A stretch of 20,335 bases of DNA from a virus (Duplodnaviria; Heunggongvirae; Uroviricota; Caudoviricetes): the IMG/VR virus record IMGVR_UViG_2660238548_000027, positions 1-20,335 of that record; one strand, written 5' to 3'. The stretch's first letter is position 1. The number at the start of each line of letters is the position of its first letter. The notes under the pieces are model-generated. The model saw only the letters and a program-made list of their open reading frames with translations. It was not told where the DNA came from and ran no database searches. Below, one piece after another: positions 9,201 to 20,335 of the stretch. The translations under genes were made by a program, and so were the position numbers.

Positions 9201-9310
9201 ATGGTGATGCCGGTGATCGTATTGTGCATAATGTCCGAACCCTGATACCCGGCAATAACCTGTTCTGGATTGCGCCACTAATAAACCAGGTGGATCCGGT
9301 GATGAAGTAA
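6287..9310 (+). CDS. Large internal virion/ejection protein, 1007 aa
   Basis: Start overlaps previous stop (TAATG at 6285-6289); Ala/Gly-rich hydrophobic segments near residues 120-210 consistent with a membrane-interacting ejection protein. Confidence 0.6.
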   Translation: MPFYPVSESNNNGFISAGLAIPEPDEQSFDVHPPEGKNPEPRPKEPSLLAAAIRQNNILAGFFRPARQFEPVEGYNPYADKNELHGYEYWGAKFAGSRSPEETAWIKQQIDDENEDRRFISEAGLAGGIASATAMLFDPVTVASMFIPGAQGGALARIGSQIAIGAAGTALSEVVLNNQQITRSWGESAAHVAAGAMMSGVFASAGVALSPSVRAAATREVADALDNMSITSATDRAAASLSDGGSVGAMKIDTATLDDLTPVSGGVVGKAAWKAGSYLTPLTRLMESPSKTVRKTTLELAENNFTLKGNERGIETPVAVETRTRGWQREEAAVVVGNKQAYAKYKADGGDMSFDSFRQQVGNAMRSGDVHANPVVQETAQAMRTVLNRVKVEMQKLGLLPPDEELKALGQASYFPRIYKVGKIISERDKFRRILVDWWSRGNKTLDPEDAEIAADIVINKITGAKVPQDFVSVFSVKAAGSTKERTLNVPDSLIRDYLESDVNYVLQRHIREAAAEIELTRTFGKRTMTERLQLIEDEYDSLLREVPEKIKAKYDESVANLKARYESNGEVVPQGKLDSLMRKYEKELRKEQSRLSKSRANDLRDITALRDRLVGTYGMPDDPSSFFVRAGAFLRDVNFTTKLGGMTVSAIPDLARGVMVNGFRNTMKGYASQISQSPAFKASKEEMLKMGIGLEAVLHSRSRAIGDLVDSSSRTTAVEAGMERITDAFGKLTLMDRFNDINKSMNGMLTSDGILSGAFSARRMAKLGINDNMAARIRSEFEKHGEVIDGWHIGNFDKWDDQYVAGVFQSAVLKDVNNTIITPGIGDTPLWASTPMGRTIFQFKSFTTASYNRALLGGLQEGTAQFYYGTAFQIALGSLVYALKEASKGKNVDWSPEKLVLEGIDRSGILGPLMEYNNMAEKATGGAVGLGALFGTGTQSRYASRGFVGSLFGPSFGLADSIIDVTAGVLNGDAGDRIVHNVRTLIPGNNLFWIAPLINQVDPVMK

Positions 9311-9328
9311 TTTTATAGAGGTGCTTAT

Positions 9329-9493
9329 ATGGATATTAAAGAGTTTAGTGAGTTAGAGAGACGCTATGAGCAAGCTAAAACGAACCGAGCTATAGGGGCA
9401 TTTATTGGCGGCGGTGGGGTATTTGCTCTGTTAGCCGATTTTTTATGGGATGTTGCGAACCCAATATCAATAGGGGTATTAATAGGCGGCTGA
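9329..9493 (+). CDS. Small hydrophobic protein, 54 aa (not in ORF track because <60 aa)
   Basis: SD AGAGGTG at 9317-9323, ATG 9329, stop TGA 9491-9493; Gly-rich hydrophobic segment AIGAFIGGGGVFALLADFLW. Confidence 0.3.
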   Translation: MDIKEFSELERRYEQAKTNRAIGAFIGGGGVFALLADFLWDVANPISIGVLIGG

Positions 9494-9625
9494 CTTGTTT
9501 TTTTTGCTGTATGCCACGAACAGGTTCGAAGTTCATTAAGAAAGTTGGATGAAGAATGTTATTTGAAGTATGGCAAGTCTTACTCTCAATCATTCCATGA
9601 AATTTTTAAAGACAAATATAATTAG

Positions 9626-9973
9626 TTAGTGGCGGGAGAAATAGGACACACGGAAATAAGTTACCGTCATAATCAACCGTGTCGATATCGATACGGTTGA
9701 TGTTTCAATACTTTCGCGGATTTCAGGGCGGACTTTGTTAGGGCTGATGCTGTTCAACCAAGCTGCCAATTTTCGTAAAGCCATACAAATCATGGCTTGC
9801 ACCCCACCGGCAGAAGGTATGGTGATTTCCACCATACCCTTCGAGAAGCGTTGAGAAATCTTCTTATGTTGAGATTTCCAGTCTAGCCCCATTCCCTCAA
9901 CGATAGGTTTCATTGGGGTATATGGTTCGCCGTTGTGATTGACAACATAAAGCTCTGCGCCGTGGAATGGCAC
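9626..9973 (-). pseudogene. Probable remnant of an antirepressor-family gene (N-terminal DNA-binding-type domain only)
   Basis: Conserved-looking PFHGAELYVVNHNGEPY...IVEGMGLDW...GGVQAMICMALRKLAAWL, but no ATG (first start is GTG at 9973, frame open to 10033) and a low-complexity C-terminal tail, suggesting truncation. Confidence 0.4.
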
Positions 9974-10091
9974 GTTGATAATAGTGACAAATTTGAAACA
10001 TCGCTGGTTGTAAGCCAGCAGATGCTCGTTATTTTACGTCGCGGCACAATTTCTCGCTGCTGGCTCTTTTATACGCATTAACCAAATATGG

Positions 10092-10121
10092 TTGATTTTA
10101 ATATTTCTTAGCGCTTATCAT
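10092..10121 (+). promoter_or_regulatory. Candidate sigma70 promoter for leader RNA copy 1 (TTGATT-N18-TATCAT)
   Basis: -35 TTGATT 10092-10097, -10 TATCAT 10116-10121; copy 2 has TTGCAA-N17-TATATT at the equivalent position before the conserved TTACCTTTGCGG start. Confidence 0.35.
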
Positions 10122-10250
10122 TACCTTTGCGGTAAATTTACATCGCACTCCTCTTGTGCCATAGTAATCATGCACTGGCAAAATCCAGTGCCGGGATTGG
10201 TCTCCCGGATTACTAAGTGGCGCATACCACGCCAGACGTGGTTTTTTTTA
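10121..10250 (+). ncRNA. Structured leader/sRNA-like element, copy 1 (three-way junction plus terminator-like hairpin/T8)
   Basis: Outer stem TAGTAATC/GATTACTA (10162-10169/10208-10215) encloses hairpins CACTGG-CAAAAT-CCAGTG (10173-10190) and CCGGGA-TTGGTC-TCCCGG (10191-10208); then CCACG-CCAGA-CGTGG + T8 (10227-10249). Homologous copy on the minus strand at 13003-13135. Confidence 0.5.
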
Positions 10251-10407
10251 TGCGTATAGCACAGTCATGCCAGAATTATGGTGGGCTGAATGGGGGTCCG
10301 AAAGGACGCCGGTACCACTTAGGCCGGTAAGACCAACTCCGTTCAGTTCACCACCATCTGATTGGTCTCAGCGGTGGTGATGTAATTCGCTAAGTGGAGA
10401 CGCCATC
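10251..10407 (+). promoter_or_regulatory. Structured 5' leader of antirepressor 1 with co-varying pairing sites
   Basis: GAAA-tetraloop hairpin GTCC-GAAA-GGAC (10296-10307); AGACCAA (10330-10336) complementary to TTGGTCT (10362-10368) in the loop of hairpin CACCACC/GGTGGTG (10349-10379); SD GGAGA 10396-10400. Confidence 0.45.
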
Positions 10408-11064
10408 ATGAACGCTCAACTCATCCCCGTATTCAACGGCACTATATCTAACGAAACAGCCCTACTTTGTAATGCCCGCGATCTGCACGCTTTTTTAGGT
10501 GTTAAAAAGGTGTTTGCAGCATGGATTACAAATCGCATATCAGAATACGAATTCATTGAAAATCAAGACTATATTTTGCTTTCCAATTTGGGAAAGCAAA
10601 CATCTGGTAGAGGCGGCCACAACCGCAAAGAGTACCACCTCACCCTTGATACAGCCAAAGAGCTGGCGATGGTCGAGCGTAACGAAAAAGGTCGTCAGGT
10701 ACGACGCTACTTCATTGAATGCGAGAAACGTTTAAGACAACAAGAAACAAAAGTGGAGAAGGTCTTGTCAGGCTTCATGCCCGCCATTATGGAGGCGATC
10801 AAGCTGGAAGACAAAAAAGAATACAGCGCCCCACTGAAGCCCGGCTACCGCAGTTTGATTCACTCGCCGTCTGGTGTTCTCGGCCTGACGGAGAACTCAC
10901 TGCTGATGAATCTGCTGAACCAGTTACAGGAAGACGGGCACGACGTATCGGGCGCGGCGGCGGAGCTGACCACCATGTTCTGCTACATCGTCGGTGTGAG
11001 CAAATGCCTGCGTGATATCCAGACGCACGCGGAGTACATCAACGACAAGGCAGGGTTCTTCTGA
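10408..11064 (+). CDS. Antirepressor, AntA-type N-terminal domain plus shared C-terminal domain, 218 aa
   Basis: SD GGAGA 7 nt upstream; N-terminal pattern LIPVFNG...[10 protein letters not shown]...FAAWITNRI typical of AntA-type domains; C-terminal ~85 aa essentially identical to the C-terminus of the minus-strand gene at 12169-12858. Confidence 0.8.
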
Positions 11065-11087
11065 CGGGCGGCGGCACAGGGACGTGC
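10822..11087 (+). repeat. Inverted repeat arm A (3' coding region of antirepressor 1 plus ~23 nt past the stop)
   Basis: Reverse-complement match to 12146-12411; identical over the 84 nt compared (10981-11064 vs 12169-12252), with a few synonymous differences further 5'. Confidence 0.8.
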
Positions 11088-11113
11088 AAAACGAAACTAG
11101 CGTGACATGTCAC

Positions 11114-11138
11114 AGGCCGCTTTCGCGGCCTTGTTTTT
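11114..11138 (+). terminator. Intrinsic terminator after antirepressor 1
   Basis: AGGCCGC-TTTC-GCGGCCT hairpin followed by TGTTTTT. Confidence 0.6.
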
Positions 11139-11298
11139 AACGAATGCCACCGCCGCCCGGGCGGGAATCCGCAGAACGCCCACCGCAGCGGGAGCCGTCA
11201 GCAGCAGTGTCGCTGTCGTGCTGACAACGACCGGCAAAGGCCTGAGTTGAAGCTACCAGAGACAACAAAACGAACAGTGCAGCAAATGCTTTTTTCAT
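11137..11298 (-). CDS. Small secreted peptide, 53 aa (signal peptide + ~31-aa mature part with 2 Cys)
   Basis: Track ORF 11137..11370 trimmed to ATG 11298 (MKKAFAALFVLLSLVASTQAFA / GRCQHDSD...); the upstream part of the track ORF overlaps a promoter-like sequence. SD weak. Confidence 0.4.
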   Translation of the reverse strand: MKKAFAALFVLLSLVASTQAFAGRCQHDSDTAADGSRCGGRSADSRPGGGGIR

Positions 11299-11311
11299 TG
11301 TGAAATTTCCA

Positions 11312-11339
11312 TCTATAAGCCACCTCAATGTGGCGTCAA
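11312..11339 (-). promoter_or_regulatory. Candidate promoter for the small peptide gene (TTGACG-N16-TATAGA on minus strand)
   Basis: -35 = reverse complement of 11334-11339, -10 = reverse complement of 11312-11317. The -10 lacks the terminal T, so weak to moderate. Confidence 0.3.
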
Positions 11340-11370
11340 TGAGTGTAGCACTGACTTTTGTTTCGTCCAC

Positions 11371-11394
11371 AAAAAAGCCCGCGCTGCGGGCTTC
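11371..11394 (-). terminator. Intrinsic terminator directly after the 210-aa cargo gene
   Basis: Minus-strand reading: GCCCGC-CAGC-GCGGGC hairpin followed by TTTTTT (plus-strand A6 at 11371-11376). Confidence 0.6.
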
Positions 11395-11396
11395 TA

Positions 11397-12029
11397 TTAA
11401 TGCAGTTTATCTTTGCTTATAACCAGTAGTCTGTGGGTATGCACATCTTTATCACTGCCCCAACAGAAATCAGCCCACTGGCTATAGAAATCATCCCATG
11501 ATGTCATGAAGCTAAGAGGTCTATCTTCTTCAGAGCCATCTGAAACGTATACATTATATCCCGGGGTGTTTATAGCCCAAGAAATCATTCTTTCCCAGAA
11601 TCTTCTCCCATCGATTGTTTGTTGCTCATCAGATACAACGATCGCATATTGCTCTAGGAAGAACTGAAAAAAAATCTGAGGCAAACCATGAACAGCACGG
11701 TCATGAATAACATTAGGCGTACGCCATACCATGATCTGCGTACATGTTCTTTTGGCTTCGACGATATCTTCCCGAAAGATTAACTTAACCGCATACACCG
11801 TTTCTGGAGTATCGCTGGTAGTAATCATTCTGTAATGATCGCCATTACAAGATTTTACAAGGCGATAACCATAAGGTGTTGTGAATCCCGGAAGAACGAA
11901 ATCAACCACACCTTTCGCTAAGTAGCTTTCGGTGTGACTAGTGTTCTTCTCAGACATGTTCAGTTTTCTATCGAAATCTGCTTCTGGGATAATGTATGGC
12001 ATCGCTTTTCTTGTTGTATTTGTTCTCAT
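11397..12029 (-). CDS. Hypothetical cytoplasmic protein, 210 aa (cargo/moron gene of unknown function)
   Basis: Strong SD GGGAGGA 5 nt upstream of ATG (12029); own terminator; visibly lower GC than flanking phage genes; no TM or signal peptide; no motif recognised. Confidence 0.7.
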   Translation of the reverse strand: MRTNTTRKAMPYIIPEADFDRKLNMSEKNTSHTESYLAKGVVDFVLPGFTTPYGYRLVKSCNGDHYRMITTSDTPETVYAVKLIFREDIVEAKRTCTQIMVWRTPNVIHDRAVHGLPQIFFQFFLEQYAIVVSDEQQTIDGRRFWERMISWAINTPGYNVYVSDGSEEDRPLSFMTSWDDFYSQWADFCWGSDKDVHTHRLLVISKDKLH

Positions 12030-12145
12030 TTCGTCCTCCCATGTTTGGCTACAGGACGTGTTTTGAAGGGAAGATTAAAAATGCTTTCTTACCCTTGAGG
12101 TAATAGTACGCTATTCACCTGCAATCTGTACAGAATTATTTAAAG

Positions 12146-12411
12146 GCACATCCCTGTGCCACCGCCCGTCAGAAGAACCCTGCCTTGTCGTTGATGTACT
12201 CCGCGTGCGTCTGGATATCACGCAGGCATTTGCTCACACCGACGATGTAGCAGAACATGGTGGTCAGCTCCGCCGCCGCGCCCGATACGTCGTGCCCATC
12301 GTCCTGTAACTGGTTCAGCAGATTCATCAGCAGTGAGTTCTCCGTCAGGCCGAGAACACCAGACGGCGAGTGAATCAGGCTGCGGTAGCCTGGCTTCAGC
12401 GGGGCGCTGTA
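12146..12411 (-). repeat. Inverted repeat arm B (3' coding region of antirepressor 2)
   Basis: Reverse complement of 10822-11087 (see arm A). Confidence 0.8.
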
Positions 12412-12858
12412 GGTTTTGTTCTCTATCTTCATCGCCTTCATCACTGCTGACGCCGTGGCGTTGGCTACCTGGTCGGCAACCATCTTTATGCGTTCTTCCT
12501 GCGGGAGCGAGTTTTTAATGTAACTTCCGGTGCGGCGGATCTGAGGAAGAACCTCACCTGTAACCCATTTACGAAAGCGGTATGGGATAGTGCCTGGTGT
12601 CACCGCATCGCGGCAGCGGAGGATCAGTGTGTAGAGGCCTGACTCGTTGATAATATTGGTTTCGCCTTGACGGCCTAAGTTAAATTTAGCCCTTTCATCA
12701 TCATCAAGAGATTTTATTGACATAGTGGGGTTTGTCAGTTGAAGAGCTTTAATAACGTCTTTGGCAACAAACCAAGGATTTCCATCAATAACAATGGCTC
12801 GAATGGTTGCTTCTGATTCAAAATGAAAAACAGATGGGGTTACGTTAGCAGTCATAGT
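12169..12858 (-). CDS. Antirepressor, Bro-N-type N-terminal domain plus shared C-terminal domain, 229 aa
   Basis: SD AAGGTGA upstream of ATG 12858 (track ORF extends to 13008 through the leader; start reassigned to MTANV). Bro-N hallmarks GNPWFVAKDV and LDDDERAKFNLGRQGE; C-terminus matches gene 10408-11064. Confidence 0.8.
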   Translation of the reverse strand, partial: TMTANVTPSVFHFESEATIRAIVIDGNPWFVAKDVIKALQLTNPTMSIKSLDDDERAKFNLGRQGETNIINESGLYTLILRCRDAVTPGTIPYRFRKWVTGEVLPQIRRTGSYIKNSLPQEERIKMVADQVANATASAVMKAMKIENKTYSAPLKPGYRSLIHSPSGVLGLTENSLLMNLLNQLQDDGHDVSGAAAELTTMFCYIVGVSKCLRDIQTHAEYINDKAGFF

Positions 12859-13002
12859 GATCACCTTTGTAGTTAGGTTAATCACCACTACCGACGCCAA
12901 TCGGTTGGTGGTGAACTGTGCAGGGTTGGCGTAACCGGCTACAAAGGACCCGGCGCACCTTTCGGTGCCCCCACACAGCCCACCATAGAATAGGTGCGTT
13001 TT
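12859..13002 (-). promoter_or_regulatory. Structured 5' leader of antirepressor 2 (copy 2 of the co-varying leader)
   Basis: Minus-strand sense: GCACC-GAAA-GGTGC hairpin; ACGCCAA (plus 12918-12924) complementary to TTGGCGT (plus 12886-12892) inside a CACCAC/GTGGTG hairpin. Confidence 0.45.
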
Positions 13003-13135
13003 ACACATAAAAAAACCGCTTATGCGGCATATGTGCCTCTGTAGTAATCCGGGACGCCAATCCCGGCACTGGATTTTGCCAGTGCCCGATTACTATGGCA
13101 CAAGAGGAGTGCGATGTAAATTTACCGCAAAGGTA
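13003..13135 (-). ncRNA. Structured leader/sRNA-like element, copy 2
   Basis: Same three-way junction as copy 1, with hairpin B loop TTGGCG instead of TTGGTC; CCGC-ATAA-GCGG hairpin + T7; identical 5' 40-nt segment TTACCTTTGCGGTAAATTTACATCGCACTCCTCTTGTGCC. Confidence 0.5.
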
Positions 13136-13167
13136 AATATAAGCACTCCACTTGGTAATTGCAAACC

Positions 13168-13425
13168 TTATCTGGTTTGTTTTCGTAATTGTTCGGCACA
13201 ATAGTCGAGATGTGTTTGCAGATCCCGCATAGACATCTGTGAGCTGGTGACGTAGTTAATCAGTGCAGTCAGTTCGGCAAGTGGGCCATCGACATTAAAT
13301 CCATCCTTATCGAGATCCCGGAGTAATTTCATCAAGTGCGATCCCTCCACCAGTGACCTGACGCCTCCCGGCGTGTGAATCCTTTCGGTAAATCCGTCTT
13401 CCAGTGGATAGTGATACTGCTGCAT
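13168..13425 (-). CDS. Small stand-alone paralogue of the antirepressor C-terminal domain, 85 aa; probable SOS-induced antirepressor
   Basis: ATG 13425 (MQQYHYPL...) with SD GGAG; track start 13443 is TTG. About 45% identity by eye to the shared C-terminal domain (IHxPxGV...AELT...RDxQTH). LexA box just upstream. Confidence 0.7.
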   Translation of the reverse strand: MQQYHYPLEDGFTERIHTPGGVRSLVEGSHLMKLLRDLDKDGFNVDGPLAELTALINYVTSSQMSMRDLQTHLDYCAEQLRKQTR

Positions 13426-13444
13426 CTTATCTTCTCCATGCAAT

Positions 13445-13464
13445 AACTGTATAAATATACAGTA
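13445..13464. promoter_or_regulatory. LexA (SOS) box AACTGTATAAATATACAGTA overlapping a promoter
   Basis: Exact CTGT-N8-ACAG palindrome with AT-rich spacer, about 20 nt upstream of the minus-strand ATG at 13425; -35-like TTGATA immediately adjacent on the minus strand. Confidence 0.7.
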
Positions 13465-13620
13465 TCAAATAATTTGTTTGCTATCCAGCACGTTTTGCGA
13501 ATCACCTGAAAGGTAATATCTGTTCGTATTTATGGGTTATATATCCATATGTGGTTTTTCAGGTAATAGAATAACCGGATATGCGGCGCAACGGGTGCTG
13601 CGACTATCCGGAGATTTAAC

Positions 13621-15714
13621 ATGACGGTCTCAACCGAAGTTGACCACAACGAATACACCGGTAACGGTGTTACAACGACATTCCCTTATACCTTCAGGAT
13701 TTTCCAGAAATCTGATTTAGTAGTGCAGGTTGTTGACCTGAACGAGAACATCACAGAGCTGATTCTTGACACTGATTACATAGTTACTGGGGCTGGAGGA
13801 TACAATGGTGGCAATATAATTCTGTCGAAGGCATTGGTTAGCGGTTATCAGATTTCTATATCACGAGAGCTCCCGTTTACGCAGGAAACTGATTTGCGTA
13901 ATCAGGGGAAGTTCTTTGCAGAAGTGCATGAGGATGCTTTTGATAAGCTAACGATGCTGATCCAGCAGGTTCGAAGTTGGTTTAGCTTGGCGCTGCGTAA
14001 GCCGTCATTCGTGGCAAATTATTATGATGCGCTTAACAATTACATCAGAAACTTACGCGATCCTTCAACCCCCCAAGATGCAGCCACTAAAAATTATGTT
14101 GATACACAGCTCAGTTCTAACCTGGGGTGTACTTTGCGCGTTCAGGAGCAGATACCGCAACTTCCTGATGCTGCCTCCCGCGCAAACAAGATGCCTGCTT
14201 TCGATAACGATGGTAACCCTATTGTTGTGCTTCCTCCATCAGGGTCTGCGTCTGACGTATTGATCGAGCTAGCCAAGCCAACTGGATCTGACTTGGTTGG
14301 TTATGGGTCACAGACGGTTAAAGCAACCCTTGATAGCCTGAATAGCATGCGGGAGGAGCTTCTTGATAAAACAGGATTTAATGCGCTGGGGCGCTTCCTT
14401 AATCTTTCAGAGCTTCGCTCCTGTGTTCCGGAGGAGGCGGGGCAGATTGTATACGTAGCATCAGCAGCTAGCACTACACATGCTGAAAACCACCTTGGTG
14501 GCGGCTTTTTCGAGTCTGTTGATAACATTCAGGCGTGGGCTGATGATGGTGGAATTGTAATCAAGCCAGAAACTGGAACGATGGTATGGAGACGAATTAA
14601 TTTTACCACTTACGACATGCAATTTTGGGGGGTGAAACCTGACGGAGTCACAGATAACGCAACAGCTATAACTCTTGCAACTAACTTTGCTCGCTCAAAC
14701 AAATGCATTCTAGAGGCTCCTGCTGGAAACATAAATACATCAAAAACAATCCCAATTTATGACAATATGGGAATTAGAGGACAGGGAAAGGCTGAAGCGA
14801 CAGTTTTTTATAAAACAACAAATGACAAAATAGATCTCACAAAAAATGGAGAAGTAATTCTTCAGGTGGATGCATTATGTGCTTTTATACCAAAGCAATG
14901 GGATCTAACAGATAACTCAATGAGTTCATTTTGTGTTAACGGTAGAGTTGAAAACTGCATGTTTAGAAGGCTTGGCTTAACACAAGAAAATGTAGATTCT
15001 TATAGAAATTATTACGGACTGTTTTTAGGAAAATCAGCAGCACCAGTTATCAGACAGTCAATTTTTGAATGTGCTTATATCGGATGCTTCTCTTATGCGC
15101 CGTTCTCTGGCGTAATGGAAATGGTCGGTTTCCCACAATATCCAGGGAAAGGATATGCTGGAGTTTTGTTTGAAGATTTTAGGGATGGTCAAATAAAAGT
15201 AATTGGCACTTCTATGGATATGCGCCTTGTTCAAGTTAATGGTTATCAGTTGTCATTTAGAATGTCCGGGATGCAATATACTACCATGACCAATTGTACA
15301 GCTGAAAACTGCACGCCAATGGATGGGGAATCAACTTGCTACGCATTTGATTTTGTAAATCCGTATTGCATTGTCATGAATACTTGTGCAACAGAATTTG
15401 TTAAAGGGGGGCAATTGCGTGTTAGCGTTCAGGGAAACCCATCATTCCGCCCATCTATTATTGTCAATGGCTTTCTACCAATTGACCAACAAAGTCCAGT
15501 AGTGCAAACACCTATAATTGATATTGACAATGGTGGTGTTGTTGAAATGAGTGTCATATTGAATGGTGGTGATTGGGCAATAAATCCATCGGCTGTAAAT
15601 TTAACTTCTCCAAAAGCAAGTGGTAATGGGTTGAAGGTAAGATTGATCGGTGTAAATGGCTCTCCTTCTTCGGTGTGGAGTGCGTCTTCTGGTGCAGAAG
15701 TAAGGGAGTTCTAA
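13621..15714 (+). CDS. Tail fibre/tailspike, 697 aa (T7-type N-terminal adaptor region; C-terminal receptor-binding, possibly enzymatic, domain)
   Basis: SD GGAG upstream; N-terminal pattern YTGNGVTTTFPYTF...LILDTDYIV and DAATKNYVD motif resemble podovirus tail-fibre N-terminal domains; Gly/Asn-rich repetitive C-terminal part. Confidence 0.75.
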   Translation: MTVSTEVDHNEYTGNGVTTTFPYTFRIFQKSDLVVQVVDLNENITELILDTDYIVTGAGGYNGGNIILSKALVSGYQISISRELPFTQETDLRNQGKFFAEVHEDAFDKLTMLIQQVRSWFSLALRKPSFVANYYDALNNYIRNLRDPSTPQDAATKNYVDTQLSSNLGCTLRVQEQIPQLPDAASRANKMPAFDNDGNPIVVLPPSGSASDVLIELAKPTGSDLVGYGSQTVKATLDSLNSMREELLDKTGFNALGRFLNLSELRSCVPEEAGQIVYVASAASTTHAENHLGGGFFESVDNIQAWADDGGIVIKPETGTMVWRRINFTTYDMQFWGVKPDGVTDNATAITLATNFARSNKCILEAPAGNINTSKTIPIYDNMGIRGQGKAEATVFYKTTNDKIDLTKNGEVILQVDALCAFIPKQWDLTDNSMSSFCVNGRVENCMFRRLGLTQENVDSYRNYYGLFLGKSAAPVIRQSIFECAYIGCFSYAPFSGVMEMVGFPQYPGKGYAGVLFEDFRDGQIKVIGTSMDMRLVQVNGYQLSFRMSGMQYTTMTNCTAENCTPMDGESTCYAFDFVNPYCIVMNTCATEFVKGGQLRVSVQGNPSFRPSIIVNGFLPIDQQSPVVQTPIIDIDNGGVVEMSVILNGGDWAINPSAVNLTSPKASGNGLKVRLIGVNGSPSSVWSASSGAEVREF

Positions 15715-15725
15715 CTATACAAACA

Positions 15726-15754
15726 TTGACATAATTAATATGTTAATCTAATCT
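15726..15754 (+). promoter_or_regulatory. Candidate sigma70 promoter of the acyltransferase gene (TTGACA-N17-TAATCT)
   Basis: Perfect -35 TTGACA 15726-15731, 17-nt spacer, -10 TAATCT 15749-15754; followed by hairpin GCCGGAA...TTCCGGC (15755-15778). Confidence 0.4.
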
Positions 15755-15784
15755 GCCGGAAATTTCAACCATTCCGGCAGAGTT

Positions 15785-16891
15785 ATGAATAATAAAGGTA
15801 ATATAATTCAAAGTCTTACATCGTTGAGAATGTTTGCAGCTCTTGGTGTTTTTGTTAGTCACCTTGGGCTATTGTCTCAATCATCAATTGGTGTGTTTAA
15901 TACTGCGGCAAAGTATTTTTTTAATGGTTATATAGGTGTGACATTTTTCTACATTCTTTCTGGTTTTATTATAAACTATAGTTTCATAAATCATGTAAAA
16001 AAAGAAGCATTCAGCAATAAAGATTTTATTGTGTACAGAATAGCAAGAATATTTCCTGTGCATATTGTAGCTCTTCTTTGCTTTATTTTAATATTTATGC
16101 ATGGTAAGATGGGGGATGGTATTAGTAAGGAAATGCTTATTTCAAATGTGTTTCTGGTGCAGTCATTTATCCCAATTCAGGATTATTATTTTTCTTTTAA
16201 CTCCGTTTCATGGAGTATCTCATGTGAGATGTTTTTCTACGTTTCATTCTGCTTCTTAACAAGGCTAAAAACAAAATATTTAGCCTGTGTTCTGTTATTT
16301 GTTCTTGTGATTAATTTCTATTTCTTAATTAACCCGCCCATAACAATATCACAGCACTGGTTGTTTTATATAAACCCAGCATTTAGAATTGGTGATTTTA
16401 TTATAGGGATGATGCTCTGTAGAGTATTTATTAATACTAGTGCAAGACCTAACAATACTGTTTGCAGTATCATTGAAATTGCATCAATATTGTCATTGCT
16501 TTTGACAGTATATATAGCAACAAACTATATTACATATATGAATATAAAGTATGATGTTCTATATATTCCTTGCATGGCATTTATAGTTATTGCCTTTGCT
16601 TTTAATGGTGGGATATTATCTAAAATTCTTAAAAATAGATTTATGGTTTTGCTTGGCGAGGCTTCTTTTTCATTTTATATGTTTCACTGGATGATTATTC
16701 AAATAGTAACAAAAATATTGAGCGTAGAAAAAGACAACTTTATCGATATGTTGGTGTATGTTGTTTTATCTTTGTTTGTTTCTATTATTGCATCAATACT
16801 ATCATTCAAGTTGATAGAAATGCCAATAAATAAAACAATAAGAAGATGTTGGAAAAAATATAGGGGGATGCAGTCTGTCAGGAGTGCATGA
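15785..16891 (+). CDS. Integral-membrane acyltransferase-3 family protein, probable O-antigen acetylase (serotype conversion)
   Basis: N-terminal LTSLRMFAALGVFVSHL (R...H motif) and FFYILSGF motif; many TM segments; strongly AT-rich coding sequence compared with neighbours. Confidence 0.8.
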   Translation: MNNKGNIIQSLTSLRMFAALGVFVSHLGLLSQSSIGVFNTAAKYFFNGYIGVTFFYILSGFIINYSFINHVKKEAFSNKDFIVYRIARIFPVHIVALLCFILIFMHGKMGDGISKEMLISNVFLVQSFIPIQDYYFSFNSVSWSISCEMFFYVSFCFLTRLKTKYLACVLLFVLVINFYFLINPPITISQHWLFYINPAFRIGDFIIGMMLCRVFINTSARPNNTVCSIIEIASILSLLLTVYIATNYITYMNIKYDVLYIPCMAFIVIAFAFNGGILSKILKNRFMVLLGEASFSFYMFHWMIIQIVTKILSVEKDNFIDMLVYVVLSLFVSIIASILSFKLIEMPINKTIRRCWKKYRGMQSVRSA

Positions 16892-16931
16892 GTATTTTTT
16901 CTTTTGTTCGTTTTAGGTGTACAAAGATTGA

Positions 16932-16968
16932 AACAGGCAACCCCACATTGATGGGGTTGCCTGTTTTC
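16932..16968. terminator. Strong hairpin terminator after the acyltransferase gene
   Basis: 14-bp perfect stem AACAGGCAACCCCA / TGGGGTTGCCTGTT with 6-nt loop, flanked by A-run and T-run. Confidence 0.65.
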
Positions 16969-17247
16969 AATGCGTTATAAAAATAAGTTTTTTTGTTATT
17001 TAAACTTTCTTTATTACTGATGAATCCTCACCAAATAAATTCAAGGTATAAGTCAATATATGGCATATAATAAATATATCTAAACTCACCTAATTATATA
17101 TAATGTAATTTTGAACACTTAATAGATAATTGCTCCTGTTCTTTCTTCCATTCATAAAATTAAATTATGTTTATCCATATATGGTTTGTTGTGTATGATA
17201 TACCCACTCAACTAAGGGGGTGTCATGAACAGTAAACGGTGGTTGCA

Positions 17248-17652
17248 ATGTCTGCTGGTCTAACAAGTGAATCATTAAATCAGTGGCTTAGTGTGAGTTC
17301 TCTTGCTGCGGTGATAGCGGGAGTTCCTCCAGAGGTCGCTTTGGGATCTTTGGCTGGTGCGGTAATTTTTGTTACCTCTGCAGTAGAATACCCAATCCGT
17401 CGTCGTGTTCTTCTGTCGATGCTCAGCTTTCTCTGCGGCCTTCTTTTCTACAAACCGGCAGCATCAATTCTTATCGGCATAGCTAGCCTGATTCCAACCA
17501 TCACGCAGGACTCATTCGAGAAAGGGATTGTATTTTCTGCAGGTGCGTTCGTGTCGGCAATTGTCGCTGTTCGTATTGGTATATGGCTCTATCACCGTTC
17601 CGATAATCCACGCGAGTTAATTCCGGGGAGAAAAGACGATGGTAACGCATGA
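17248..17652 (+). CDS. Holin (three predicted TM segments, charged C-terminus)
   Basis: ATG 17248 with GGTGG 6 nt upstream (track start 17239 is GTG); hydrophobic segments; C-terminal [19 protein letters not shown]; first gene of the lysis cassette. Confidence 0.65.
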   Translation: MSAGLTSESLNQWLSVSSLAAVIAGVPPEVALGSLAGAVIFVTSAVEYPIRRRVLLSMLSFLCGLLFYKPAASILIGIASLIPTITQDSFEKGIVFSAGAFVSAIVAVRIGIWLYHRSDNPRELIPGRKDDGNA

Positions 17653-17947
17653 CCTTTTTTTACTTATCACCAATGCAGTTATTTGTACTGGCATAGCAAT
17701 TCGCGTTGTCACTTTCCAGCGTAACGGATCTCAACACCGAAGATGGGGTGGGTGGATTGCTTATTTCCTGATTGTTGCTGCGGCCAGTATTCCTGTTCGT
17801 GTCGTTTATGCAATCTGGTTACGCACGCCAATGGCTGTGGATTTATCTGAGGTCATTATCAACGCTGTCATGCTTGCTGCGGTTATTAAAACGCGCGGTA
17901 ACGTTGTGCAGATTTTTAAAATAACGAGGTCTAAACATGGAGATTAA
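17639..17947 (+). CDS. Second holin-like small membrane protein (possible antiholin or lysis regulator), 102 aa
   Basis: Start overlaps holin stop (ATG 17639, TGA 17650-17652); 2-3 hydrophobic segments; stop overlaps the endolysin start. Confidence 0.5.
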
Positions 17948-19264: not shown

Positions 19265-19804
19265 TTAATTAAACCAGCTGTCCGATTTGTTCTCTTCTGC
19301 TTTGCCCACGCTTTTCATCAGATCGCGACCGCCTTCAGTCATATTTCTGTTGGCGTCAGCTTCAGATTGCACCACATCGGTTTGCGCAGCTTTGTGCTTC
19401 AGTTCCTGATCGATAAATTCGTTTTCTCGCTTAACGCGGGCTTCTTCTTTTGCCAGCGCCAGTTTTTGTTTCTGAATCTCTAAGCTGCGTAGCTCATCTT
19501 CATAACTTTGATCGCGTTTTTTGTCCGCAGAGGCTTCGGCGTCCAGTTTATCCTGACGAGCTTTCTTATTTGCTGCTGCCGTTGCCGCTCTTTTGTTAGC
19601 GGCGGCCTGGGCATTTGCGCGACGTTGCTTCTCTTGCTGGATTTCCCTGTTGCGCTCCGCGACCCATTCGTCATGCTGCTTTTGCTCTTCATTTTTACCT
19701 TGCTGTTCCGCTTCTGCGACAGCCGAGAGTTGATCCTGCAATGATGAGGCGATAGCCGGATAGCTTAAGGAGGCCAAGATGGCGCAAAGAAAAACTTTCT
19801 TCAT
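19265..19804 (-). CDS. Secreted Ala/Lys/Glu-rich coiled-coil protein, 179 aa (host-like envelope protein)
   Basis: Signal peptide MKKVFLCAILASLSYPAIA then low-complexity helical sequence; SD AGGAGGAG upstream of ATG (19804). Confidence 0.7.
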   Translation of the reverse strand: MKKVFLCAILASLSYPAIASSLQDQLSAVAEAEQQGKNEEQKQHDEWVAERNREIQQEKQRRANAQAAANKRAATAAANKKARQDKLDAEASADKKRDQSYEDELRSLEIQKQKLALAKEEARVKRENEFIDQELKHKAAQTDVVQSEADANRNMTEGGRDLMKSVGKAEENKSDSWFN

Positions 19805-19819
19805 GACTCCTCCTGATTA

Positions 19820-20335
19820 TTAGCTCTTTTCAGGACATTTAGTATTTGGCTGAATACGCGTTTCGTTATACGTCGTGGTAATAACAACGGCTAAACCTGT
19901 CGTAAACTGGCACTTTTTACCCACCTGGGTGGAGGTATACACTTTGGTGCCTTCCTTATACGTTAAAGAAACACCTTCCACTAAGGTTTTATCATTCACC
20001 ATAGAACCCGCTGCCGCGCCTACAGCTCCGCCGCCAACTGCCCCTGCCGTCGTTCCGGAATTGCTGCCAGAACCGACGTTGTGGCCGATAACACCGCCAG
20101 CGACTGCGCCAATAAGCGCGCCGAAGGCTTGTGCGTTCCGTTTATTTTGGGAGTTGTCTACGGCAACTTTTGCGGGAAGAATGGAAATAATATTAACGGT
20201 TTTAGTTTCTTGTTTGGTATTCAGTTGATCGGTTTGATAAACATCGGCGGCATGATCGTCAGCATTTGACTGGCATCCTGCCAGAGTGAATGACGCTAAC
20301 ATTGCTACAGGCAGAAGACATTTTTTAAATTTCAT
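19820..20335 (-). CDS. Glycine-zipper outer-membrane lipoprotein, 171 aa
   Basis: Lipobox FTLAGC; Gly-zipper GALIGAVAGGVIGHNVGSG...GAVGGGAVGAAAG; start codon sits exactly at the window edge. Confidence 0.7.
   Translation of the reverse strand: MKFKKCLLPVAMLASFTLAGCQSNADDHAADVYQTDQLNTKQETKTVNIISILPAKVAVDNSQNKRNAQAFGALIGAVAGGVIGHNVGSGSNSGTTAGAVGGGAVGAAAGSMVNDKTLVEGVSLTYKEGTKVYTSTQVGKKCQFTTGLAVVITTTYNETRIQPNTKCPEKS

What the first reader, a model, noticed from the sequence alone, without database searches (positions are those of the whole stretch)
13621..16968. Tailspike plus AT-rich O-antigen acyltransferase: a receptor-recognition and seroconversion pair
The tail fibre combines a T7-type N-terminal adaptor region with a long C-terminal domain of the kind seen in polysaccharide-degrading tailspikes. 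Immediately downstream is an acyltransferase-3 family gene with its own near-consensus promoter (TTGACA-N17-TAATCT), a 5' hairpin, a strong terminator, and much lower GC than the phage backbone, so it looks horizontally acquired. By established analogy (Oac-type acetylases of serotype-converting phages), the lysogen probably acetylates its O-antigen and blocks superinfection by phages using the same receptor.
Basis: partly seen in the sequence, partly recalled or inferred. Interest (0 to 1): 0.5.

Follow-up and report, generated by a model that had tools for sequence, protein, structure and literature searches.

The report
Phage tailspike with linked O-antigen acyltransferase
A prophage almost identical to E. 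coli O103 phage TL-2011b carries its O-antigen-cutting tailspike next to a self-contained membrane acyltransferase gene. This is a further example of the known trick by which resident phages alter the cell-surface sugar so that similar phages cannot attach.

Summary
ORF 13621-15714 is a tailspike. ORF 15785-16891 is an Acyl_transf_3 (AT3) membrane protein with intact catalytic motifs, a promoter, a strong terminator and 30% GC. The region is 99.6% identical to Escherichia phage TL-2011b, a phiV10/epsilon15-like phage from an O103:H25 outbreak strain, where the gene is already annotated O-acetyltransferase. The tailspike N-terminus has a T7 gp17-type fold and the C-terminus is a beta-helix depolymerase fold. 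Published work already assigns its receptor-binding domain to an O103-specific subtype. New here: this receptor-binding domain and this AT3 clade are neighbours, 73-121 nt apart, in 10 of 13 lineages on at least three phage backbones. One is a P22-like prophage in a strain with O103 wzx/wzy. Across 11 lineages the promoter is footprinted: TTGACA, exactly 17 nt of variable spacer, TAnnCT. Corrections: the -10 box matches only 3 of 6, the low GC starts inside the tailspike gene, and the hairpin overlaps the -10 box, so it is probably not in the gene's own mRNA. O-antigen acylation and superinfection exclusion remain inferred. PhiV10 Oac is the precedent but is not an orthologue. Verdict: a new member of a known kind, of modest interest.

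The parts
13621..15714 (+). Tailspike gene (697 aa), equivalent to TL-2011b gp48.
   Evidence: ORF. The DNA is 99.6% identical to TL-2011b. It matches PHROG tail families. The AlphaFold2 model and Foldseek hits are to phage tailspike depolymerases.
13621..14104 (+). N-terminal particle-attachment (anchor) module, about aa 1-160, conserved among Uetakeviruses and with a T7 gp17-type fold.
   Evidence: DNA is 77-89% identical to phiV10, PAS61 and epsilon15 up to window position 14104. Protein identity to phiV10 gp25 is high over aa 1-215. PDB sequence search hits the Carin-1 fibre N-terminus at E 1.5e-24. Foldseek hits T7 gp17 N-terminal structures 7boz, 7ey9 and 8dsp. Pfam PF03906 is below threshold.
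14266..15714 (+). Receptor-binding domain (RBD, aa 216-697): right-handed beta-helix of the published O103-associated RBD subtype. GC is lower here (0.39 from codon 301).
   Evidence: It is 92-94% identical to tailspikes of P22-like prophages that have a different N-terminus. It is 52% identical to PAS7 and 44% to Ro103C3lw, both with O103 hosts. pLDDT exceeds 90 over about aa 330-697, and the top PDB fold matches are 24qi, 6eu4, CBA120 TSP2 and the Sf6 tailspike. GC.
15726..15754 (+). Sigma-70-type promoter of the acyltransferase: -35 TTGACA (15726-15731), 17-nt spacer, -10 TAATCT (15749-15754). The predicted transcription start is near 15760-15762.
   Evidence: Sequence. Phylogenetic footprint across 11 lineages. 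The promoter is also kept in L015, where no tailspike lies upstream. The start site is inferred from promoter geometry and was not measured.
15753..15780 (+). Hairpin CTGCCGGAA / TTCCGGCAG with a 10-nt loop and no U-tract. It overlaps the end of the -10 box and ends 4 nt before the ATG.
   Evidence: Fold energy is -16.6 kcal/mol, z -4.2. The inverted repeat CTGCC...GGCAG is kept in most lineages, with 81% of cells paired against 25-55% when the partner is slid. Covariation is not above shuffles.
15785..16891 (+). AT3-only acyltransferase gene (368 aa), equivalent to TL-2011b gp49. It is the inferred O-antigen O-acyltransferase.
   Evidence: Pfam PF01757 at E 5e-24. PHROG 3333 'O-acetyltransferase' at E 1e-86. 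R15-x10-H26, R85-xx-R88, FFxxxSGF and SWSxxxE are invariant in 38 homologues. GC is 0.30.
16927..16971 (+). Intrinsic terminator, readable on both strands: stem 16934-16945 / 16952-16963, then TTTT at 16964-16967.
   Evidence: -30.2 kcal/mol, z -6.7.
16972..17160 (.). AT-rich non-coding spacer at the 3' edge of the non-backbone block. Homology to phiV10 and PAS61 resumes at about 17161, just upstream of the lysis genes.
   Evidence: GC of 16892-17238 is 0.29. blastn to phiV10 and PAS61 resumes at query positions 270-281 of 16892-17300.

Best explanation
The window is a TL-2011b-like temperate podovirus of the epsilon15/phiV10 group. Gene 13621-15714 encodes its trimeric tailspike. A T7 gp17-type N-terminal domain fixes it to the tail. 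A C-terminal beta-helix binds, and probably cleaves, the E. coli O103 O-antigen.

Directly downstream lies an autonomous gene unit of the moron type: promoter, AT3-only integral-membrane acyltransferase, terminator. In the lysogen this gene is most likely transcribed from its own sigma-70 promoter. Its product most likely moves an acyl (probably acetyl) group across the inner membrane onto the O103 repeat unit. The modified O-antigen would no longer be a good substrate for tailspikes of this RBD type. That would protect the lysogen from superinfection by TL-2011b-like and other O103-specific phages and keep released virions from being trapped on cell debris.

The RBD and the AT3 gene are inherited and exchanged together between phage backbones as a 'recognise and mask' pair.

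Shown here: gene identities, folds, motifs, promoter conservation, and the linkage. Inferred: the substrate (O103 antigen), the acyl group, expression in the lysogen, and the exclusion phenotype.
For: Identity. The region is 99.6% identical to TL-2011b over 13400-17300, and RefSeq calls gp49 an O-acetyltransferase. The source literature reports TL-2011b as inserted in guaA, infectious for O103:H25 and serotype-specific (PMC3293862, PMC4315091).

AT3. The Pfam hit is strong. The family's published functional motifs (R/K-x10-H and RxxR; PMC9558356) are present and invariant.

Precedent. PhiV10 of the same genus has oac in the same slot, between the tail fibre gene and the lysis genes. Expression of that gene modifies O157 antigen, reduces binding and abolishes plaques (PMC11854483). 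PAS61, Tyrion, SPN1S and others also carry acyltransferases.

Linkage.
- Where the AT3 is at least 50% identical, a homologue of this RBD lies directly upstream on the same strand, 73-121 nt away, in 10 of 13 lineages. It is never there below 45% identity.
- The backbones differ: Uetakevirus (window), P22-like (L003, L005) and lambdoid-type (L008).
- In Franconibacter a 43-aa tailspike remnant still precedes the AT3, beside a gtrABC-like operon.

Host link. The P22-like carrier strain 19KM2326N has O103 wzx and wzy. The isolated E. coli phages with this RBD type (TL-2011b, PAS7, Ro103C3lw) all have O103 hosts (PMC10408124, PMC11522302).

Transcription unit. The promoter is footprinted and a strong terminator follows. 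GC is deviant in every lineage: AT3 0.30-0.40, RBD 0.40-0.43, flanks 0.44-0.57.

Circumstantial. PAS7 clears but does not plaque on O103:H25 strain NVH-848 and on a second O103 strain (PMC11522302). I did not establish whether either strain carries the prophage.
Against: - No experiment on this protein was found. The TL-2011b papers do not mention the gene.
- I found no report in the searchable library that O103 antigen carries O-acyl groups.
- The AT3 has no detectable BLAST similarity to phiV10 Oac. It is at most 35% identical to any other acyltransferase in isolated phages. The functional analogy therefore rests on family and context, not orthology.
- AT3 proteins also acylate other glycans, including peptidoglycan, capsules and exopolysaccharides (PMC9558356).
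- The -10 box is weak, and expression in the lysogen is unmeasured.
- In L015 and L016 the AT3 with its promoter sits alone next to flagellar genes. Linkage to a tailspike is therefore not obligatory.
- AT3 alleles only 63-83% identical accompany RBDs 92-94% identical. The pair is therefore not one co-evolving unit with a single history.
Confidence: 0.68

Rival explanations
1. The acyltransferase does modify the O-antigen, but its selected role is benefit to the host, such as changed antigenicity, serum resistance or colonisation. It would give little or no protection against phages of this RBD type.
For: O-antigen acylation by AT3 proteins is immunodominant and linked to virulence in other systems, such as Salmonella OafB and Legionella Lag-1 (PMC9558356). 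The AT3 with its promoter also occurs without any phage, next to fliE, in L015 and L016. TL-2011b was reported to infect O103:H25 (PMC4315091).
Against: The gene sits tightly and repeatedly next to the cognate RBD on three phage backbones. That is hard to explain unless the two functions interact. In phiV10, Sf6 and BTP1 the phage-borne acetylase does block the phage's own tailspike (PMC11854483, PMC9558356).
Confidence: 0.12
2. The AT3 protein acylates a surface glycan other than the O-antigen, such as enterobacterial common antigen, a capsule or colanic acid, or peptidoglycan. Its position next to the tailspike would then be only the usual cargo slot.
For: The AT3 family has many substrates (PMC9558356). 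No NCBIfam equivalog names the protein. No solved structure is related by sequence.
Against: The linkage is specific to one RBD family, whose characterised members infect O103 hosts. In Franconibacter the gene lies beside a gtrABC-like O-antigen glucosylation operon. Distant phage relatives are O-antigen acetylases such as BTP1 GtrC.
Confidence: 0.1
3. The gene is silent or decaying cargo with no present function in this prophage.
For: The -10 hexamer matches consensus at only 3 of 6 positions, and the promoter scan found no excess of sites. Some relatives sit next to frameshifted tailspikes (L008-L010).
Against: The ORF is full-length and all family motifs are invariant across 38 homologues down to 35% identity. 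The promoter hexamers and spacing are conserved while the spacer sequence is not. The window protein is 99% identical to the representative of a 90%-identity cluster of 151 sequences.
Confidence: 0.05

Closest known systems
Escherichia phage TL-2011b (NC_019445) gp48-gp49
   Same: Essentially the same element. It is 99.6% identical over 13400-17300, with the same gene order, promoter, hairpin and terminator. RefSeq names gp49 O-acetyltransferase. Pas et al. place gp48 in an O103-specific RBP subtype (PMC10408124, PMC11522302).
   Different: Over the whole window identity is 98% with 86% coverage. The uncovered part appears to be the antirepressor region, about 9300-13600; I judged this by comparing ORF layouts and did not align it. 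Neither gene product has been tested experimentally in the papers found.
PhiV10 tail fibre (gp25) plus Oac (gp26)
   Same: Same phage group and the same slot between the tail fibre and lysis genes. The tailspike N-terminal anchor is homologous. Oac is an AT3-only protein shown to modify O157 antigen and give immunity to phiV10 (PMC11854483).
   Different: Oac lies on the opposite strand. It has no BLAST-detectable similarity to the window's AT3 (E 0.35). The RBD is different (O157 against O103).
Shigella phage Sf6 tailspike plus Oac (OacA), and Salmonella BTP1 GtrC/OafB
   Same: These are temperate podoviruses in which an AT3 acetylase modifies the O-antigen that the phage's own tailspike cleaves, giving superinfection immunity (PMC9558356). 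The window's beta-helix fold also matches the Sf6 tailspike. The P22-like carriers of this cassette (L003, L005) have the order tailspike, AT3, integrase. From memory, and not checked here, that is also the Sf6 order.
   Different: Sequence relation is only distant (BTP1 GtrC 24% identical). BTP1 GtrC is described as an AT3-SGNH fusion (PMC9558356), whereas the window protein is AT3-only. The O-antigen is different.
Morons: autonomous promoter-gene-terminator units in prophages, as first described for HK97/HK022 (from my own knowledge, not checked here)
   Same: It has its own promoter, a single gene, a strong terminator and deviant GC.
   Different: The mobile block also includes the 3' two-thirds of an essential structural gene, the tailspike RBD.

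Membership tests
Acyltransferase-3 (AT3, Pfam PF01757) membrane O-acyltransferases | Match to the family profile above the curated threshold over the whole domain. | tested here: met
   85.3 bits against a cut-off of 31, covering aa 9-336 of the protein and positions 2-324 of the 326-position profile.
Acyltransferase-3 (AT3, Pfam PF01757) membrane O-acyltransferases | R/K-x10-H motif in the first transmembrane helix and RxxR motif in the first cytoplasmic loop (functional residues in OafA/OafB and OacA; PMC9558356). | tested here: met
   R15-x10-H26 and R85-IA-R88 are present and invariant in a 38-sequence alignment down to 35% identity.
Acyltransferase-3 (AT3, Pfam PF01757) membrane O-acyltransferases | Polytopic inner-membrane topology of about 10 helices. 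| tested here: inconclusive
   A crude Kyte-Doolittle scan (19-residue window, score at least 1.6) finds six well-separated strongly hydrophobic regions. No dedicated topology predictor was available.
Serotype-converting phage O-antigen acetylases (Sf6 OacA, phiV10 Oac type) | Phage-borne, AT3-only architecture, next to the tailspike gene. | tested here: met
   The protein is 368 aa with a single domain. It lies 70 nt downstream of the tailspike in a TL-2011b-like prophage.
Serotype-converting phage O-antigen acetylases (Sf6 OacA, phiV10 Oac type) | Sequence orthology to a characterised Oac. | tested here: not met
   BLASTP against phiV10 Oac gives E 0.35. Apart from TL-2011b itself, the best match in isolated phages is at most 35% identical. 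Sf6 OacA was not compared directly.
Serotype-converting phage O-antigen acetylases (Sf6 OacA, phiV10 Oac type) | Adds O-acetyl to the host O-antigen and blocks adsorption of the cognate phage. | not testable with these tools
   This needs LPS chemistry and adsorption or plating assays.
Beta-helix tailspike depolymerases | Right-handed parallel beta-helix fold similar to solved phage tailspikes. | tested here: met
   AlphaFold2 pLDDT exceeds 90 over about aa 330-697. Foldseek hits are 24qi (E 2.9e-16), 6eu4, 7vz3, 5w6p and 2vbm.
Beta-helix tailspike depolymerases | Trimeric assembly and an acidic catalytic pair that cleaves the polysaccharide. | not tested
   Only a monomer was modelled. Candidate residues were proposed for PAS7 and compared with TL-2011b by Pas et al. 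(PMC11522302), but I did not map them here.
T7 gp17-type N-terminal tail-attachment domain | Match to Pfam PF03906 (Phage_T7_tail). | tested here: inconclusive
   19 bits, E 0.0012, below the 25.2-bit cut-off. Only aa 134-168 match profile positions 122-156.
T7 gp17-type N-terminal tail-attachment domain | Fold similarity to gp17 N-terminus as seen in solved T7 tail complexes. | tested here: met
   Foldseek hits 8dsp, 7ey9, 7boz, 7ey7 and 9jz0 at E 6e-5 to 2e-3, probability 1.0, TM-score (target) 0.4-0.56. The closest is the Carin-1 fibre 8ck1 (E 5e-10). Caveat: only aa 9-84 of the model are confident.
Uetakevirus (epsilon15/phiV10-like) prophage | Collinear nucleotide similarity to genus members across the structural and lysis genes. 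| tested here: met
   93% identity to phiV10 over 36% of the window, and 94-95% to PAS61, HEMP4 and EC.W1-9 over 29-35%. Gene order is the same.

The most novel reading that the evidence does not exclude
The O103-type RBD and this AT3 clade form a long-lived, portable 'recognise and mask' cassette with its own conserved promoter. The cassette hops between unrelated phage backbones and genera of Enterobacterales. In E. coli prophages the mask gene diversifies much faster (63-83% amino-acid identity) than the recognition domain (92-94%), possibly because different alleles acylate different positions in an arms race among O103 phages. Only one of those carrier strains was confirmed as O103. The conserved hairpin that overlaps the -10 box and the ribosome-binding region would then act as an insulator. 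It would form only in late read-through transcripts from the tailspike gene and keep the acyltransferase from being made from them.
Probability: 0.25. Interest if true: 0.5.

Novelty: new member of a known kind. Interest (0 to 1): 0.3.

Why it matters
O103 is one of the main non-O157 Shiga-toxin-producing E. coli serogroups. Phages and tailspikes specific for it are being developed for detection and biocontrol.

If this prophage gene acylates the O103 antigen, carriers would resist O103-specific phages and tailspike-based reagents while still typing genetically as O103. That could explain why some O103 strains are cleared but not plaqued by phage PAS7.

The conserved tailspike-RBD and acyltransferase adjacency also gives a simple genomic rule. 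It pairs an orphan O-antigen-modifying enzyme with the receptor specificity of a tailspike.

Tried and rejected
- **PhiV10 Oac comparison.** BLASTP found no similarity, so orthology with the characterised enzyme is rejected.
- **Naming the AT3.** NCBIfam gave no family for either protein. The PDB sequence search gave only chance matches for the AT3.
- **RNA families.** An Rfam scan of 13000-17700 found nothing at the promoter or hairpin. A sub-threshold rimP-leader match lies on the terminator (30.4 bits against 47) and I treat it as chance.
- **Hairpin covariation.** The test across 11 lineages found 2 pairs with compensatory changes, no better than shuffles. RNA-level selection is not demonstrated. 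The arms are conserved mostly as sequence.
- **Alternative extended -10 promoter.** TGtTAATCT (15741-15749) is conserved only in the window, TL-2011b and L003. The other lineages lack it, so I rejected it in favour of the N17 promoter.
- **Phase variation.** I considered Dam/GATC-type control as in gtr and oafB. By eye there is no GATC in 15715-15784.
- **Complete genomes.** None of 5,426 complete RefSeq E. coli genomes holds at least 80% of 13400-17300, so prevalence could not be measured there. Draft assemblies do hold it.
- **Not done.** Both structure-prediction jobs went to the tailspike, so the AT3 was not modelled.


Full report
**1. What is there**

The window has two adjacent plus-strand ORFs at the stated positions: 13621-15714 (697 aa) and 15785-16891 (368 aa). 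Region 13400-17300 is 99.6% identical over its full length to Escherichia phage TL-2011b. That phage was recovered from the Norwegian 2006 E. coli O103:H25 outbreak strain. The whole window matches it at 98% identity over 86% of its length.

In the RefSeq record the two genes are gp48 ('hypothetical protein') and gp49 ('O-acetyltransferase'). A two-holin, endolysin and spanin cassette follows them. The backbone is that of the epsilon15/phiV10 group (Uetakevirus), with 93% identity to phiV10 over 36% of the window. The source literature describes TL-2011b as a 45-kb phage, 53% identical to phiV10 and inserted in guaA. It infects O103:H25 but none of 38 commensal strains (PMC3293862, PMC4315091). 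Neither paper mentions the acyltransferase.

**2.

*GC content.*
- The acyltransferase is 0.30 and the spacer after it 0.29.
- Neighbouring phage genes are 0.44-0.54.
- The fall begins inside the tailspike gene: codons 1-160 are 0.44, codons 161-300 are 0.51 and codons 301-697 are 0.39.

*Promoter.*
- TTGACA, 17 nt, TAATCT is present at 15726-15754.
- The -10 box matches TATAAT at only three positions, so the consensus scan did not report it. That scan found no excess of promoter-like sites in the region at all (17 against 16.4 in shuffles). On this sequence alone the promoter would be a weak claim.
- Comparison makes it a strong one. I aligned the region upstream of the acyltransferase from 11 lineages whose proteins are 50-83% identical to the window's.
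- The -35 hexamer is 97% conserved (TTGACA in 10 of 11, TTGACT in one).
- The spacer is 17 nt in 11 of 11 but only 45% identical.
- The -10 box is TAnnCT in all (86% identity).
- The sequence just upstream is 26% identical.
- The promoter is also kept in a lineage where the gene has no tailspike upstream and sits next to fliE (L015). It therefore belongs to the acyltransferase unit.

*Hairpin.*
- The hairpin at 15753-15780 is real (-16.6 kcal/mol, z -4.2). Its arms, CTGCC...GGCAG, are retained in most lineages.
- Covariation is not above shuffled controls: two pairs carry compensatory changes.
- Its 5' arm begins inside the -10 hexamer. A transcript started the usual ~7 nt downstream, near 15760-15762, would lack that arm. 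That start position is my inference from promoter geometry.
- The hairpin is therefore more likely a feature of read-through transcripts from the tailspike gene than a 5' element of the acyltransferase's own mRNA. It has no U-tract, so it is not a canonical terminator.

*Terminator.* It is strong and readable on both strands: stem 16934-16963 then TTTT, -30.2 kcal/mol, z -6.7.

**3. The tailspike**

The first ~160 codons are conserved at the DNA level in phiV10, PAS61, epsilon15 and many prophages (77-89% identity, ending at window position 14104 or earlier). The protein aligns with phiV10 gp25 through about aa 215, and similarity fades by about aa 350.

*N-terminus.*
- The Pfam T7 tail-fibre N-terminal domain scores below threshold (19 bits against 25.2).
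- A model of aa 1-170, confident only for the beta-sandwich at aa 9-84, retrieves the fibre N-termini resolved in podovirus tail complexes.
- Those hits are Carin-1 (E 5e-10), PhiM1, Kp7/Kp9 and T7 gp17 (7boz, 7ey9, 8dsp; E 6e-5 to 4e-4, probability 1.0).
- 'T7-type adaptor' is therefore right as a remote fold-level statement.

*C-terminus.*
- The full-length model has pLDDT above 90 over about aa 330-697.
- It matches solved tailspike depolymerases: Acinetobacter phage Belisarius gp86 (E 2.9e-16), AS12 gp42, Klebsiella Depo32 and K2-2, CBA120 TSP2 and the Sf6 tailspike.

*Host specificity.*
- Among 50,697 deposited phage genomes, seven records hold a relative of the RBD. They are TL-2011b (two records), PAS7 (52%, O103 host), Ro103C3lw (44%, O103 host), two Aeromonas phages and one Enterococcus phage.
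- This reproduces the published assignment of TL-2011b's RBP to an O103-specific subtype (PMC10408124, PMC11522302).

**4. The acyltransferase**

- It matches Pfam Acyl_transf_3 across the whole domain (85.3 bits) and PHROG 3333 'O-acetyltransferase' (E 1e-86).
- It has no SGNH domain, so it is 'AT3-only'.
- The motifs that mutagenesis has tied to function in this family are R/K-x10-H in the first helix and RxxR in the first cytoplasmic loop (PMC9558356). Both are present (R15...H26, R85..R88). They are invariant in 38 homologues down to 35% identity, as are FFxxxSGF and SWSxxxE.
- It is not an orthologue of phiV10 Oac (BLASTP E 0.35).
- TL-2011b is the only isolated phage with a relative above 35% identity. 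More distant phage relatives include annotated O-antigen acetylases such as BTP1 GtrC.

**5. The pair is a conserved, mobile unit**

*Carriers on other backbones.*
- No complete RefSeq E. coli genome holds the whole 3.9-kb region.
- The best match is a P22-like prophage at argW/yfdC in strain 19KM2326N. Its tailspike has the P22 head-binding N-terminus but an RBD 94% identical to the window's. An acyltransferase 83% identical follows, and then the integrase.
- That strain carries O103-family wzx and wzy.
- Other P22-like prophages pair a 92%-identical RBD with a 65%-identical acyltransferase.
- A prophage with lambda-like tail genes pairs a frameshifted 56-73% RBD with a 61% acyltransferase.
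- In Franconibacter the acyltransferase (60%) lies beside a gtrA-gtrB-gtrC-like operon. It is still preceded by a 43-aa remnant of the tailspike C-terminus.

*Survey.* I searched 132 loci fetched from genome and viral collections.
- A homologue of this RBD lies directly upstream, on the same strand and 73-121 nt away, in 10 of 13 lineages whose acyltransferase is at least 50% identical.
- Two further lineages have a distant RBD homologue 335 or 612 nt upstream. I counted these among the 10.
- Three lineages have none.
- No locus below 45% identity has one.

*History and boundaries.*
- DNA identity between the window and the 19KM2326N cassette is 97-100% over 14400-15199, 78-96% over 15200-15700 and 69-94% across the acyltransferase. 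It ends at about 16870-16900. The two genes therefore have different histories yet stay neighbours.
- In every lineage checked the acyltransferase (GC 0.30-0.40) and the RBD (0.40-0.43) are more AT-rich than their surroundings (0.44-0.57).
- In the window, backbone homology to phiV10 and PAS61 resumes at about 17161. The non-backbone block therefore runs from within the tailspike gene to there.

**6. Most likely mechanism**

This is by analogy with three tested systems.
- In phiV10, expression of oac modifies O157 antigen, lowers binding and abolishes plaques (PMC11854483, citing Perry 2009).
- In Sf6, O-acetylation hinders the phage's own endorhamnosidase (PMC9558356).
- In BTP1, rhamnose acetylation protects against the BTP1 tailspike (PMC9558356).

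The best reading is that the lysogen acylates its O103 antigen and so becomes a poor substrate for tailspikes of this RBD type. The persistent adjacency of one AT3 clade to one RBD family is the strongest new argument that the two act on the same polysaccharide.

The substrate, the acyl group, the position modified, expression in the lysogen and the exclusion phenotype are all inferred. One published observation fits but is ambiguous. PAS7, whose RBD is 52% identical, gives clearing without plaques on O103:H25 strain NVH-848 and on another O103 strain, and plaques on a third (PMC11522302). I did not establish whether those strains carry the gene.

**7. Rivals**

- The modification serves the host (antigenicity or virulence) rather than exclusion.
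- The target is another glycan.
- The gene is silent cargo.

The RBD-specific linkage, the gtr neighbourhood, the invariant motifs and the conserved promoter argue against the last two. The first cannot be separated from the main reading without experiments.

**8. Novelty and verdict**

The element is in GenBank. The gene is already named O-acetyltransferase, the tailspike's O103 assignment is published, and phage-borne O-antigen acetylases next to tailspikes are textbook cases (Sf6, phiV10).

What I did not find described in the papers read:
- the conserved RBD-AT3 cassette across phage backbones;
- its footprinted promoter;
- the faster divergence of the acyltransferase relative to the RBD.

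This is a well-supported new member of a known kind, of modest interest. It has a practical angle for O103 phage diagnostics and biocontrol.

Noticed in passing
window 13009-13098 (-): Rfam isrK Hfq-binding sRNA matches at 76.8 bits against a gathering score of 50 (E 8e-16). It overlaps a c4-a1b1 antisense-target match just under threshold. Both lie directly upstream of the Bro-N/antirepressor-like ORF 12169-13008 (-). This looks like an immI-type antisense control region for an antirepressor.
   Followed up: no
window 10110-13147: There are nested inverted repeats: 10809-11087 / 12146-12424 (279 nt, 95%), 10110-15 to 10215 / 13042-13147 (106 nt, 93%) and 10307-10381 / 12881-12955. Two antirepressor-like genes (10408-11064 + and 12169-13008 -) share their last ~85 codons and face each other around ORF 11397-12029. 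The ORF layout here also differs from TL-2011b.
   Followed up: partly
window 15725-15747: A second small hairpin or inverted repeat (ATTGACATA / TATGTTAAT, 9 bp) covers the -35 hexamer and part of the spacer. It folds together with the main hairpin (-22.1 kcal/mol for 15715-15800, z -4.7). The spacer is not conserved in other lineages, so it may be chance.
   Followed up: partly
window 16972-17160: About 190 nt of AT-rich (about 29% GC) non-coding DNA lies between the terminator and the point where phiV10/PAS61 homology resumes. It has no Rfam family above threshold. Its function is unknown.
   Followed up: partly
window 19265-20335 (-): A DUF5384 protein (19265-19804) and a glycine-rich lipoprotein-like ORF (19820-20335) follow the lysis genes. 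RefSeq names the TL-2011b counterpart of the latter 'DNA methyltransferase', which looks like a mis-annotation.
   Followed up: no
L011/L012/L013 (Franconibacter pulveris) 5799-5927 of L011: A 43-aa remnant of the tailspike C-terminus (63% identical, E 2e-11) persists directly upstream of the acyltransferase homologue. It lies beside a gtrA-gtrB-glucosyltransferase operon and no phage genes are nearby.
   Followed up: yes
L015/L016 5001-7114: In an Enterobacteriaceae MAG and a Pseudescherichia MAG, the acyltransferase homologue keeps its promoter and hairpin but sits alone next to fliE-fliFGH. A second acyltransferase, fragmented into two ORFs, follows it.
   Followed up: partly
protein P0177 (Logan contig, 714 aa): One predicted protein carries both the tailspike beta-helix family (PF27114) and Acyl_transf_3 (PF01757). 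It is either an RBD-acyltransferase fusion or an assembly or frameshift artefact.
   Followed up: no
window 13400-17300, against the databases: None of 5,426 complete RefSeq E. coli genomes holds at least 80% of the region. One near-identical tailspike sequence alone is recorded on 268 contigs of draft or metagenome assemblies. The window acyltransferase is 99% identical to the representative of a 90%-identity cluster of 151 sequences. The reason for the discrepancy was not examined.
   Followed up: no
L145 733-1613 (E. coli 19KM2326N O103 gene cluster): Between wzx and the next glycosyltransferase, a family-2 glycosyltransferase is annotated as a short 540-nt CDS followed by a 171-nt hypothetical CDS. 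It may be a disrupted O-antigen gene in the strain that carries the P22-like version of the cassette.
   Followed up: no
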